Assembly: GCF_057098645.1 (NCBI RefSeq)
Contig: NZ_CM169472.1
Direction: 5' to 3' (one strand)
DNA length: 64,000 nucleotides
The translations under genes were made by a program, and so were the position numbers. How positions within the stretch are numbered: position 1 is the stretch's first letter; each line of letters opens with the position of its first letter. A model generated the notes under the pieces. The model did no database searches and was not told the DNA's origin. It saw nothing but the letters and a program-made list of their open reading frames with translations. Below, piece after piece: positions 7,548-10,021 of this stretch.

Positions 7548-7564
7548 ACTAAGTATTCCTTAGT
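7548..7564. promoter_or_regulatory. Inverted repeat upstream of the HTH gene; candidate controller-protein operator
   Basis: actaag-tattc-cttagt palindrome about 50 bp upstream of the HTH ORF start. Confidence 0.3.
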
Positions 7565-7613
7565 AATTTCGAGTGTAAAAAGTGCAAACCTACCTCCAAA
7601 AAGAGGATTTTCG

Positions 7614-7817
7614 ATGCTTCCAATTAGGTTAAAAAAAGCCCGATTGAATGCTGGGTTAACTCAAGAACAGTTGGGAATACTTGTTGGCATTGATGAATGC
7701 TCTGCCAGTGCTCGCATGAATCAATATGAGAAAGGTAAACATATGCCCGATTTTTCACTTACTAAAAAAATCGCTGATTTATTAAATGTCCCTGTCTCAT
7801 ATTTTTACACACCCTAA
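7614..7817 (+). CDS. Small HTH (XRE-family) regulator; candidate controller (C) protein of the adjacent R-M system
   Basis: 67-aa ORF MLPIRLKKARLNAGLTQEQLGILVGIDECSASARMNQYEKGK... with a classic helix-turn-helix; GAGGA RBS; sits immediately upstream of the putative restriction endonuclease on the same strand. Confidence 0.6.
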   Translation: MLPIRLKKARLNAGLTQEQLGILVGIDECSASARMNQYEKGKHMPDFSLTKKIADLLNVPVSYFYTP

Positions 7818-7911
7818 GATGACTTGGCAGAAATTATTTTGTTGATTAATAAACTAGACAAAAAACAGCGGTTAATTTTATTAAAAAATTTATCAGATGG
7901 ATTTATAAGTC

Positions 7912-8730
7912 ATGAATAAGCAAGAAGTTATACTTAAAGTGCAGGAGTGTGCTGCGTGGTGGATTTTGGAGAGACAAAGTAAACTAACAAAGTTAATGTC
8001 AGAAACAATGTCCATAAATCCGTTTATGACCCCTTTTATTTTTGATTATCATTCCCTTAATGATTTTGATGAACTAGTTGAAGCAATAATTGCTAAGCAT
8101 TTAATGACTGGGCATGATACTGGCTTTGGAAAATTGATTGATGAAAAAATACTTCCTAGAGTGTTTGGTGCATATAAATTAGATAAAAGTTATAGAGCTG
8201 CCAACGAGCCTTTTATACACCCTTGCTTTGATGAAATAGATCATGTAATACAAAGGGATGATGGTAGAATTGAGCTTTTATCTCTTAAGGCAGGGAAATG
8301 GACTATTCAATTGACGATGGCTGTCCAACTAAATAAAGCATTTCACGAAATCATAAATAATTATCCTGGAGTGGCTGACAATATAGTGGTTGGGGTTTTT
8401 TATGGAAATAGCCATGGATTAACTGATAAGTATAGAATCTTACGAGGTATCAATACTGGTGCAAACCACAATGTGATTGATATTCGTGACAAAGTGCATG
8501 TATATGCTGGTAAAGAATTTTGGTCATGGCTTAACAATGGTGAGGCTGAAACCCAGCATTGGGTACTTGAAGGTATAGAACGTGCTGTAAAAGAAGCAGA
8601 TATAAAAGAAAAAAATAAAGATCTTATTGAAAAATTCAAAGAACATGTTGCAAAGAAGTACAATGAGCAAGTTCTAAATGCTGATGGCACAGCTCAATGG
8701 CACAAATTACTTGAAATGATTAATGAATAA
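7912..8730 (+). CDS. Putative type II restriction endonuclease (partner of the convergent m5C methyltransferase)
   Basis: 272-aa AT-rich ORF with no recognised housekeeping similarity, convergent with and 38 bp from a C5-cytosine methyltransferase, preceded by a C-protein-like HTH gene. Assignment is by genomic context. Confidence 0.5.
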   Translation: MNKQEVILKVQECAAWWILERQSKLTKLMSETMSINPFMTPFIFDYHSLNDFDELVEAIIAKHLMTGHDTGFGKLIDEKILPRVFGAYKLDKSYRAANEPFIHPCFDEIDHVIQRDDGRIELLSLKAGKWTIQLTMAVQLNKAFHEIINNYPGVADNIVVGVFYGNSHGLTDKYRILRGINTGANHNVIDIRDKVHVYAGKEFWSWLNNGEAETQHWVLEGIERAVKEADIKEKNKDLIEKFKEHVAKKYNEQVLNADGTAQWHKLLEMINE

Positions 8731-8757
8731 AAAACTGGCCTAAGGGCCAGTTTTTTT
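8731..8757. terminator. Bidirectional intrinsic terminator between convergent REase and MTase genes
   Basis: A-run, ctggcc-taag-ggccag hairpin, T7 run. Confidence 0.7.
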
Positions 8758-8767
8758 ATGACTAATT

Positions 8768-10021
8768 CTAAACTTCTTCTTCAAGGTCGTAGTAAGAAAC
8801 ATCTCCACTATATGCTTGACCATTTTTAAAGAAAGATCTGGTTCTAATATGCGGTCTAATATGGGTTTCTATATAATCTGGAGTTACTAAATCAGCAACC
8901 TTATTTTCTTGTATACGATGAAGAAGTTCCATAGCAGCTTCCCCTGCAACTTTACCTAACCGGACAGGAACTGCGTTACCTATCTGTCTGAATTTTTCTG
9001 TAGTTGTACCTTCAAATTTCCAGTAATCAGGAAACTCTTGTATCGCGGCAGCTTCACCAACAGAAATAGCTCTAAGTTCAGTTGGGTGGCACATACTTGT
9101 TCCCGCATGATTTGGCATTGTTACTACTGTGGGTGAAGGAAACTGGAAAGATAGTTTCCTCCAGTAAGCACTTCTTCCTCCTTTAAGATACCAGCTTTTT
9201 CCCATAGATTCTTTTTGCATTTCTTCTGGCATGCTTCTCCAGTTTCCGCCAGGTGGAACCATTGAAAGATATTTCAGTTTTCTTGGCGAAAAATTCATGA
9301 CTTCTGGATATTTATCAACAAAACCGCTCTCTGGGCCAATTACATCCCCCAGCGTTTTGAATGGCGGAAGATTATCTTCTACTCTATTGCTGAATAAAGG
9401 GGAGGCGAAATTGGCTATCATTCCGAAGCGATTACCAATTAAAATAACACGCTCCCTAATTTGTGGGGCTCCATAGTTGGCAGCATTAACTACAAAGCAA
9501 TCCACATGATAACCTAGTTTATTGAATTCGTTAGCTACCCTTTTTATTAGAGAGCCTTTTTCGAAAGCAGATGCTGCGATTGTGCCTGATAGCTCCTTCT
9601 TTTTAGAAGCTGGAACTATAGACATTGATAATAAACCGCGTACGTTTTCCATTACGAAAACTTTTGGGTTTAATTCTTTAATCATTCGAACGTATTCGAA
9701 AATAAGCTGCCCTCTGGCATCTTCTAGCCCTAACCTATTTCCAAAAACACTAAATGCTTGGCACGGTGGACCGCCAGCAACTAAATCTATTTCTTCTTTA
9801 TCATTCACTCCGGCTAGTGCTAATAATTCAGAGCCAGTGCAGTCAACAATACTACCTTCGAATACAGCAAGATTTGGCTTATTAGTTTTAATTGTTTTTA
9901 GAGCTGCCTTATCTTGTTCAACGCAAGCTACGAGCTCAAAGCCAGCCTCTTCGAGACCTAAGTCTAACCCCATTGCGCCACTAAATAGCGAAATAAACTT
10001 TTTACTAGACAAAATAATCAC
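8768..10021 (-). CDS. DNA (cytosine-5)-methyltransferase
   Basis: 417-aa ORF with m5C-MTase motifs: FSGAMGLDLG (motif I), GGPPCQAFS (motif IV, catalytic PC), ENV (motif VI), QIGNAVP (motif X). Confidence 0.9.
   Translation of the reverse strand: MIILSSKKFISLFSGAMGLDLGLEEAGFELVACVEQDKAALKTIKTNKPNLAVFEGSIVDCTGSELLALAGVNDKEEIDLVAGGPPCQAFSVFGNRLGLEDARGQLIFEYVRMIKELNPKVFVMENVRGLLSMSIVPASKKKELSGTIAASAFEKGSLIKRVANEFNKLGYHVDCFVVNAANYGAPQIRERVILIGNRFGMIANFASPLFSNRVEDNLPPFKTLGDVIGPESGFVDKYPEVMNFSPRKLKYLSMVPPGGNWRSMPEEMQKESMGKSWYLKGGRSAYWRKLSFQFPSPTVVTMPNHAGTSMCHPTELRAISVGEAAAIQEFPDYWKFEGTTTEKFRQIGNAVPVRLGKVAGEAAMELLHRIQENKVADLVTPDYIETHIRPHIRTRSFFKNGQAYSGDVSYYDLEEEV

What the first reader, a model, noticed from the sequence alone, without database searches (positions are those of the whole stretch)
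7548..10021. Type II R-M cargo (C-protein-like HTH, putative REase, m5C MTase) between int and cos of the satellite
The region between integrase and cos or psu, which in P4 holds non-essential genes, is occupied here by a convergent REase/MTase pair with a small HTH gene and a palindromic operator-like site upstream of the REase. The MTase has all canonical m5C motifs, whereas the REase has no recognisable similarity and may have a new specificity. A mobile satellite carrying defence cargo is biologically notable.
Basis: partly seen in the sequence, partly recalled or inferred. Interest (0 to 1): 0.55.

Follow-up and report, generated by a model that had tools for sequence, protein, structure and literature searches.

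The report
Known EcoO109I restriction system, regulator truncated
The three genes are the long-known EcoO109I restriction-modification system sitting in its published place inside a P4-like satellite prophage at the leuX tRNA gene; the only new detail is a stop codon that truncates its small regulator gene in this bacterial clone.

Summary
A small HTH gene, a 272-aa ORF and a convergent m5C methyltransferase lie between the P4-like integrase and an exact P2/P4 cos site, downstream of tRNA-Leu (leuX).

The claim that the REase has no recognisable similarity and may have a new specificity is wrong. The 272-aa protein is 100% identical over 272/272 residues to R.EcoO109I (PDB 1WTD/1WTE, UniProt Q9RPJ3), which recognises RG^GNCCY. 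The HTH gene is C.EcoO109I (Q9RPJ4). The palindrome at 7548-7564 is its published C-box, CTAAG-N5-CTTAG.

EcoO109I as cargo of this P4 hotspot is already in the literature (Kita 1999, as cited by Rousset 2022). The same module is in 68 of 5,426 complete E. coli genomes.

One thing is new. At 7815 the window has T instead of G (GAA to TAA), which cuts C from 101 to 67 aa. The lost part corresponds to the two C-terminal helices that make 75% of the dimer interface in the homologue C.Csp231I. None of the 68 complete genomes has this allele. Six other assemblies or sequencing runs, each 100% identical to the window where they overlap, do have it.

C inactivation is reported to abolish EcoO109I REase production, so this clone is probably restriction-low but still methylating. 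That step is inferred. Novelty: already known. Interest: low.

The parts
5923..6007 (+). tRNA-Leu(CAA), leuX. Its 3' end (5983-6007) is the attL side of the satellite.
   Evidence: ARAGORN. Annotated as tRNA-Leu in homologous loci.
6160..7446 (+). P4-like tyrosine integrase. RefSeq homologues start at the equivalent of 6172.
   Evidence: NF007246, 269 bits. Annotated as tyrosine-type recombinase/integrase.
7548..7564 (.). C-box operator ACTAAGtattcCTTAGT, 51 bp upstream of the C start codon. A lone CTTAG half-site lies 25 bp upstream, at 7519-7523.
   Evidence: Inverted repeat I4. It is the only match, and an exact one, to the published CTAAG-N5-CTTAG in the window. The consensus is quoted in PMC6765115 and PMC4824078.
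7614..7817 (+). ecoO109IC, controller (C) protein gene, truncated allele: 67 codons plus a TAA stop. The ancestral ORF runs to 7919 (101 aa) and overlaps the REase start by 8 nt.
   Evidence: PADLOC Control_protein, 150 bits. With codon 68 restored, the 101-aa sequence is an exact match to 'Eco0109IREP Q9RPJ4'. It aligns to C.Csp231I over residues 1-86.
7815..7815 (+). G to T substitution, making codon 68 GAA (Glu) into TAA (stop). This is the only difference from other strains within C, R and M.
   Evidence: Base-by-base comparison with TUM9757 and O157:H7 FRIK944. 0 of 68 complete genomes share it. It is present in six other assemblies or runs that are 100% identical to the window.
7912..8730 (+). 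ecoO109IR, Type IIP restriction endonuclease R.EcoO109I (RG^GNCCY), intact.
   Evidence: 272/272 identical to PDB 1WTD/1WTE 'EcoO109IR', E=1.9e-187. PADLOC REase_II PDLC03471, 654 bits. UniRef name EcoO109IR Q9RPJ3.
8768..10021 (-). Cognate m5C DNA methyltransferase (M.EcoO109I by position), intact, convergent with R.
   Evidence: TIGR00675 dcm, 199.5 bits against a cut-off of 100.65. PADLOC MTase_II, 350 bits. Best PDB relatives are M.HaeIII and M.HhaI. Motifs FSGAMGLDLG, GGPPCQAFS, ENV, QIRERV and GNAVP are visible in the translation. It is identical to the MTase of strains with an intact C gene.
10051..10078 (-). Candidate MTase promoter: TTGAGG, 16-nt spacer, TACAAT, about 30 nt upstream of the GTG start.
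   Evidence: Consensus scan. The number of hits in the region is no higher than in shuffles, so this is only a candidate.
10155..10173 (-). cos: an exact copy of the 19-nt P2/P4 cohesive-end sequence GGCGAGGCGGGGAAAGCAC.
   Evidence: 0 mismatches; 0.03 expected by chance. The query sequence came from memory.
10338..10910 (-). psu (polarity suppression / capsid decoration).
   Evidence: Annotated as 'phage polarity suppression protein' in homologous loci.
10984..11484 (-). delta (Ogr/Delta zinc-finger activator).
   Evidence: NF007241, 81.5 bits, below its curated cut-off of 116. Annotated as ogr/Delta-like zinc finger family protein in homologous loci.
11481..12233 (-). Gene in the sid position, intact here.
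   Evidence: Assigned from the P4 gene order only (my own knowledge). Annotated as hypothetical protein in RefSeq.
13714..16352 (+). IS21-family insertion sequence (istA, istB), 2,639 bp, flanked by a 6-bp GTTTGT duplication. It interrupts a small satellite ORF that is intact in TUM9757.
   Evidence: NF033546 at 284 bits and NF038214 at 257 bits. Junctions.
17452..19785 (+). P4 alpha-type primase-helicase.
   Evidence: TIGR01613. Annotation of the homologous locus.
20323..20343 (+). attR: an imperfect copy of the leuX 3' end (TTGAGTCCGGCCTTCGCACCA). The satellite therefore spans about 6008-20343: 14.3 kb, or 11.7 kb without the IS.
   Evidence: Longest exact repeat of the tRNA 3' end. Sequence read.

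Best explanation
The region is the EcoO109I Type II restriction-modification system: ecoO109IC, ecoO109IR and, convergent with them, ecoO109IM. It is carried in the variable int-to-cos cargo slot of a P4-like satellite prophage integrated at leuX.

The wild-type mechanism comes from the literature. The m5C methyltransferase is made from its own promoter and protects RGGNCCY sites. C.EcoO109I binds as a dimer to CTAAG-N5-CTTAG upstream of its own gene and switches on the C-R transcription unit. R.EcoO109I, a PD-(D/E)XK dimer, cleaves unmethylated RG^GNCCY and leaves 3-nt 5' overhangs.

In this window the controller gene has a nonsense mutation (G7815T, Glu68 to stop). This removes residues 68-101. 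In the homologue C.Csp231I, helices 6-7 (its residues 67-98) supply 75% of the dimer interface. The mutation also ends translation 97 nt before the REase start codon, which in the wild type overlaps the C stop codon.

I infer that REase production in this clone is strongly reduced while methylation continues, giving a restriction-attenuated, modification-proficient state. My probability for this sub-claim is about 0.6. Identity and context are shown. The expression consequence is inferred.
For: Identity
- R is 272/272 identical to PDB 1WTD/1WTE EcoO109IR and is named EcoO109IR Q9RPJ3.
- The restored 101-aa C equals Eco0109IREP Q9RPJ4 exactly.
- The C-box is exact and unique in the window.
- M is a full-length m5C MTase.

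Context
- leuX, P4-like integrase, an exact cos sequence, psu and delta, alpha primase and attR.
- The same int-C-R-M-psu arrangement is in 68 of 5,426 complete E. coli genomes, always chromosomal and single-copy.
- int-C-R-M differs by 1-2 bases in about 4 kb from two strains whose flanking ahr gene differs by 3.5-4%. This fits horizontal spread.

Literature
- EcoO109I is listed as a known system of the P4 hotspot (PMC9122126).
- Recognition sequence RG^GNCCY and the structure (PMC7337904).
- Helices 6-7 of C.Csp231I (residues 67-98) give 75% of the dimer interface (PMC3115060).

Nonsense allele
- Found.
- It is real, not a read error: six other contigs from different assemblies and runs carry it and are 100.000% identical to the window over up to 10,253 bp.
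Against: - No expression or activity data exist for this allele.
- The 67-aa product keeps the five-helix HTH core, which is the whole protein in ordinary C proteins of 8-9 kDa. It could retain partial function.
- In the homologous Csp231I system the REase has its own promoters and is expressed without C (PMC4824078).
- A TAGACA hexamer identical to the -35 of Csp231I PR1 lies at 7855-7860 inside the C gene, with a possible -10 TATTAA at 7879-7884. I read this from the sequence; it is not tested. C-independent REase transcription therefore cannot be excluded.
- I could not read Kita 1999 or Kita 2002 directly.
- I did not match the MTase by name to the original M.EcoO109I deposit.
Confidence: 0.9

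Rival explanations
1. The EcoO109I system is fully active in this strain. Either the 67-aa C core still dimerises, binds the C-box and activates, or the REase is transcribed from a C-independent promoter inside the C gene, as in Csp231I. In that case the stop codon has little phenotypic effect.
For: - The core of helices 1-5 is retained.
- Csp231I expresses its REase without C (PMC4824078).
- A Csp231I-PR1-like TAGACA lies at 7855-7860 (sequence).
- R and M are completely intact.
Against: - For EcoO109I itself, C inactivation is reported to abolish REase production (PMC4824078, citing Kita 2002).
- The deleted helices form 75% of the dimer interface in the homologue.
- C and R overlap in the wild type, and R lacks a good Shine-Dalgarno sequence. 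Early termination should therefore uncouple R translation.
- The promoter scan found no + strand site between 7614 and 7912.
Confidence: 0.3
2. The T at 7815 is a sequencing or assembly error, and the C gene is really intact.
For: It is a single-base difference that is absent from all 68 complete RefSeq genomes carrying the module.
Against: The same 67-aa allele is called in independent NCBI, Logan and ENA assemblies: GCA_053268055.1, GCA_029357705.1, DRR634222 (this contig in 5 samples), SRR5033736, SRR27405698 and ERZ28535843. All are 100% identical to the window.
Confidence: 0.03
3. One reading: a novel REase of unknown fold and new specificity, paired with an m5C MTase.
For: - NCBIfam finds no family for the 272-aa protein.
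- Pfam gives only a weak hit: PF14511, 21 bits, E=2.4e-4.
A reader working without exact-match resources would therefore see nothing.
Against: - 100% identity to the crystallised R.EcoO109I.
- A full-length PADLOC REase_II match.
- The UniProt name.
Confidence: 0.01

Closest known systems
EcoO109I R-M system of E. coli H709c (Kita et al. 1999, 2002; PDB 1WTD/1WTE)
   Same: - The REase is identical in sequence.
- The C protein is identical apart from codon 68.
- Same C-box and same convergent R/M layout.
- Same kind of carrier: EcoO109I is a known cargo of the P4-satellite hotspot (PMC9122126, citing Kita 1999). That the original lay between int and psu at leuX is my recollection of the 1999 abstract.
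   Different: - The C gene carries the Glu68-to-stop mutation.
- The IS21-family element here sits in a small ORF between the icd-like gene and alpha. From my memory of the 1999 abstract, H709c has an IS21 in sid. I could not verify this because the paper is not held.
- The window is therefore a different strain.
Csp231I R-M system / C.Csp231I (PDB 3LFP and others)
   Same: - The C proteins are close homologues: about 70% identity according to the literature, and aligned over residues 1-86.
- Same motif-8 C-box, CTAAG-N5-CTTAG.
- Seven-helix C protein with a C-terminal dimerisation extension.
- Convergent R/M genes.
   Different: - Different REase and specificity.
- In Csp231I the C and R genes do not overlap, and R has its own promoters and does not need C.
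- In EcoO109I, C is reported to be required for R production.
P4 satellite hotspot for defence cargo (Rousset et al. 2022, PMC9122126)
   Same: - The cargo occupies the variable hotspot of a P4-like satellite which, in P4 itself, holds gop/beta/cII.
- EcoO109I is explicitly listed among the known systems found there.
   Different: Nothing in kind. This copy of the satellite additionally carries an IS21-family insertion, which makes it 14.3 kb.
AvaII / PmeII-family PD-(D/E)XK REases
   Same: - Related catalytic core and a related GGNCC-type target (PMC7337904).
- NCBI names close relatives 'PmeII family'.
   Different: These are only distant relatives. The protein here is EcoO109I itself.

Membership tests
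EcoO109I Type IIP R-M system | REase sequence equals R.EcoO109I | tested here: met
   272/272 identical to PDB 1WTD/1WTE. Exact sequence named EcoO109IR Q9RPJ3.
EcoO109I Type IIP R-M system | Adjacent cognate m5C MTase with the canonical motifs, convergent with R | tested here: met
   TIGR00675, 199.5 bits, above its cut-off. PADLOC MTase_II. Motifs are visible in the translation. A match by name to the original M.EcoO109I deposit was not obtained.
EcoO109I Type IIP R-M system | Intact 101-aa controller protein C.EcoO109I | tested here: not met
   The gene is present but truncated to 67 aa by G7815T. This is a mutant allele of the same gene, not a different gene.
EcoO109I Type IIP R-M system | C-box CTAAG-N5-CTTAG upstream of the C gene | tested here: met
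   Exact match at 7549-7563, the only one in the window. The consensus is from PMC6765115.
EcoO109I Type IIP R-M system | Cleavage at RG^GNCCY and m5C methylation of that site in this strain | not testable with these tools
   Needs enzyme assays or a methylome. Site counts are uninformative because K-12, which lacks the system, is equally poor in RGGNCCY.
P4-like satellite (defence hotspot cargo) | Integrase next to a tRNA att site, cos, psu-delta-sid block, alpha primase, attR | tested here: met
   The identity of sid rests on position only.
P4-like satellite (defence hotspot cargo) | Element is still packageable and mobile | not testable with these tools
   The 2,639-bp IS21-family insertion raises the size to 14.3 kb, against about 11.6 kb for P4 (my own knowledge), and interrupts an ORF. 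Mobility is doubtful but untested.
C-protein-controlled R-M operon | C gene immediately upstream of R and co-oriented with it, with overlapping stop and start codons | tested here: met
   The ancestral C stop at 7917-7919 overlaps the R ATG at 7912. In this allele translation stops at 7817, so any coupling is lost. That loss is inferred.

The most novel reading that the evidence does not exclude
The Glu68-to-stop allele is a naturally fixed controller knockout. It converts a mobile R-M system into a methylation-only (epigenetic, orphan-like) module while keeping an intact REase gene that a single base change could re-activate. It may have been selected, for example to relieve the lethal cross-talk between C.EcoO109I-family proteins and the Rac prophage repressor RacR (PMC6765115), or to lower the cost of restriction.
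Probability: 0.2. Interest if true: 0.4.

Novelty: already known. Interest (0 to 1): 0.15.

Why it matters
The finding mainly serves as a correction. What looked like an unrecognisable endonuclease with possibly new specificity is a crystallised enzyme of known specificity, and its presence as cargo of a P4-like satellite has been published since 1999 and was re-catalogued in 2022.

The residual value is small. A clonal E. coli lineage carries a nonsense allele of the controller gene with intact R and M genes. That makes it a ready-made natural test of two questions:
- whether the C-terminal helices of this class of C proteins are needed for function;
- how R-M systems decay towards orphan methyltransferases.

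Tried and rejected
1. Restriction-site avoidance.
- RGGNCCY occurs 11 times in the window against 39 +/- 6 under a first-order Markov model, with none before position 16866.
- A 50-kb stretch of K-12, which lacks the system, is equally depleted: 7 observed against 34 expected. A third-order model largely explains both: 19.1 +/- 5.2 for the window and 11.2 +/- 4.1 for K-12.
- This is a species-wide oligonucleotide bias, not evidence of activity.

2. Family libraries for the REase.
- NCBIfam gave nothing.
- Pfam PF14511 RE_EcoO109I scored only 21 bits.
- Identity came from the exact-match resources: PDB, PADLOC and the cluster look-up.

3. L005 (GCA_029714805.2) also appeared to encode the 67-aa protein. 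Its contig simply ends at window position 7814 and its flank is only 98.3% identical. It is a contig-end artefact and I did not count it.

4. The promoter/terminator scan of 7400-10400 gave no more hits than shuffles. Only the MTase-side hit is mentioned, as a candidate.

5. A second full C-box upstream was not found. Only a CTTAG half-site at 7519-7523 is present.

6. Kita 1999 (PMC94149) and Kita 2002 (PMC134244) are not held. Their content is cited through later papers or marked as my recollection.

7. PMC9638921 has no data on truncated C proteins.

8. The C-RacR incompatibility idea could not be tested, because the rest of the genome is not available.
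Full report
**1. What is in the sequence**

Between 7,500 and 10,100 the window holds three ORFs:
- a small HTH gene, with its real start at ATG 7614 preceded by GAGGA;
- a 272-aa ORF at 7912-8730 on the + strand;
- a 417-aa ORF at 8768-10021 on the - strand, convergent with the second and 37 bp from it.

The segment is AT-rich, 34-42% GC, against 52-55% in the neighbouring chromosomal genes. A perfect inverted repeat, ACTAAG-n5-CTTAGT, lies at 7548-7564.

**2. Surroundings**

The surrounding element, in order along the window:
- tRNA-Leu(CAA), that is leuX, at 5923-6007.
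- A P4-type integrase at 6160-7446 (NF007246).
- After the methyltransferase, an exact copy of the 19-nt P2/P4 cohesive end at 10155-10173 (I supplied the query sequence from memory).
- psu at 10338-10910, delta at 10984-11484 and a gene in the sid position at 11481-12233. The names psu and delta come from the RefSeq annotation of the homologous loci and from NF007241 for delta, which scored below its curated cut-off. The name sid is by position only.
- An alpha-type primase at 17452-19785.
- An imperfect repeat of the tRNA 3' end at 20323-20343, which marks attR.

The element is thus a P4-like satellite of 14.3 kb. That figure includes a 2,639-bp IS21-family insertion at 13714-16352, flanked by a 6-bp duplication, which is absent from strain TUM9757.

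**3. Identity of the genes**

- The 272-aa protein is 272/272 identical to PDB chains 1WTD/1WTE, 'EcoO109IR' (E = 1.9e-187).
- It matches one PADLOC Type II REase model end to end at 654 bits.
- The exact sequence carries the UniRef name 'EcoO109IR, Q9RPJ3'.
- The HTH protein matches the PADLOC 'Control_protein' model (150 bits) and C.Csp231I (PDB 3LFP).
- The methyltransferase passes the curated TIGR00675 dcm cut-off (199.5 against 100.65 bits). It shows the m5C motifs FSGAMGLDLG, GGPPCQAFS, ENV, QIRERV and GNAVP. Its closest solved relatives are M.HaeIII and M.HhaI.
- The palindrome equals the published C.EcoO109I/C.Csp231I operator consensus CTAAG-N5-CTTAG (PMC6765115; motif 8 in PMC2632904 and PMC4824078). 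It is the only such site in the window.

This is the EcoO109I R-M system. Its enzyme recognises RG^GNCCY, leaves 3-nt 5' overhangs, and has crystal structures with and without DNA (PMC7337904). It is understandable, though: NCBIfam finds nothing, and even Pfam's RE_EcoO109I model scores only 21 bits.

**4. Is the context new?**

No.
- Rousset et al. 2022 analysed the variable hotspot of P4-like satellites, the region that in P4 holds gop, beta and cII. They list 'the type-II RM system EcoO109I (Kita et al., 1999)' among the known defence systems found there (PMC9122126).
[quoted passage not shown] I could not open it. My recollection of its abstract is that it places the system between int and psu of a P4 prophage at leuX, with an IS21 in sid.
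- In complete RefSeq E. coli genomes the same int-C-R-M-psu block occurs in 68 of 5,426 genomes, always once and always chromosomal. Many of these are O157:H7.
- Against two such strains, int-C-R-M differs by one or two bases in about 4 kb, while the adjacent chromosomal gene ahr differs by 3.5-4%. That is the pattern expected for a horizontally spread element.

**5. The one new detail**

In RefSeq homologues the HTH gene is 306 nt, encoding 101 aa (WP_000936844.1), and its stop codon overlaps the REase ATG. In the window, position 7815 is T instead of G. This turns codon 68 from GAA into TAA and leaves a 67-aa product.

- It is the only difference within C, R and M.
- With the Glu restored, the protein is exactly 'Eco0109IREP, Q9RPJ4'.
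- None of the 68 complete genomes has the T.
- The 67-aa protein is nevertheless on record. Contigs from GCA_053268055.1, GCA_029357705.1, DRR634222, SRR5033736, SRR27405698 and ERZ28535843 carry it and are 100.000% identical to the window over up to 10,253 bp.
- The allele is therefore real and marks one clone.
- A seventh apparent case, L005, is a contig-end artefact.

**6. Likely consequence (inferred)**

- In the homologue C.Csp231I, residues 67-98 form two extra helices that contribute 75% of the dimer interface. The five-helix core buries only 310 Å² (PMC3115060).
- The alignment places the truncation exactly at that boundary.
- Premature termination 97 nt upstream also removes any translational coupling to the REase gene, which has only a weak GGA ten bases upstream of its ATG.
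- The methyltransferase has its own side of the locus, with a candidate promoter at 10051-10078.

I therefore expect a methylating but poorly restricting state, with a probability of about 0.6.

The main rival, at about 0.3, is that restriction persists. Two routes are possible. The HTH core may suffice. Alternatively the REase may have a C-independent promoter, as in Csp231I: a TAGACA identical to the -35 of that system's PR1 lies at 7855-7860, which I read from the sequence.

**7. Checks that led nowhere**

- RGGNCCY sites are scarce: 11 against about 39 expected under a first-order model, with none before position 16866. A K-12 segment without the system is equally depleted, and a third-order model largely accounts for both. 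This is not evidence of activity.
- The promoter/terminator scan is no better than shuffles.
- No second complete C-box was found.

**8. Verdict**

- Observation: confirmed.
- Interpretation: partly supported. It is R-M cargo in a satellite, but it is not a novel enzyme.
- Novelty: already known.
- Interest: low. A modest point remains: a natural nonsense allele of the controller gene, fixed in one clone.

Noticed in passing
window 13714-16352: A 2,639-bp IS21-family element (istA/istB) with a 6-bp GTTTGT target duplication is inserted in a small satellite ORF between the icd-like gene and alpha. It is absent from strains TUM9757 and FRIK944. It enlarges the satellite to 14.3 kb, which probably compromises packaging into small P4-size capsids.
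   Followed up: partly
window 3253-4626 (-): yjgR (HerA-like helicase) has a 1-bp deletion in a C-run (C6 to C5) relative to O157:H7 FRIK944. The frameshift replaces about the last 65 residues; the product is 441 aa against 500 aa. The same truncated gene is called in contigs of the same clone.
   Followed up: partly
window 20344-24720: Just beyond attR lies very AT-rich DNA (29-40% GC). It contains a 682-aa ORF (21021-23069, +) with no Pfam, NCBIfam or PADLOC match, followed by an HNH-domain ORF (23692-24720, -). This is an uncharacterised gene next to known defence systems.
   Followed up: partly
window 25104-38462: A type II Zorya system (ZorE2 25104-26207, ZorB2 26211-26918, ZorA2 26925-28634, all on the - strand) sits back-to-back with a type III Druantia system (DruH 28789-32148, DruE 32139-38462, + strand).
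   Followed up: no
window 38686-54909: A four-gene + strand block: an SNF2/DrmD-like helicase (952 aa), a Type IIG REase-MTase-like protein (1,636 aa), a second DruE-like giant helicase with an HNH-like C-terminus (2,113 aa) and a UvrD/GajB-like helicase (704 aa). PADLOC hits are partial only, so the type of system was not resolved.
   Followed up: no
window-wide; L010 (K-12 1.00-1.05 Mb): RGGNCCY (and GGNCC generally) is 3-5-fold rarer than a first-order model predicts, both in this window and in K-12, which lacks EcoO109I. CCNGG is over-represented. This is a species-level compositional feature.
   Followed up: yes
window 7855-7884: Inside the 3' part of the C gene there is a TAGACA identical to the -35 of the C-independent REase promoter PR1 of the related Csp231I system, followed after 18 nt by TATTAA. 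This is a possible internal REase promoter. It has not been tested.
   Followed up: no
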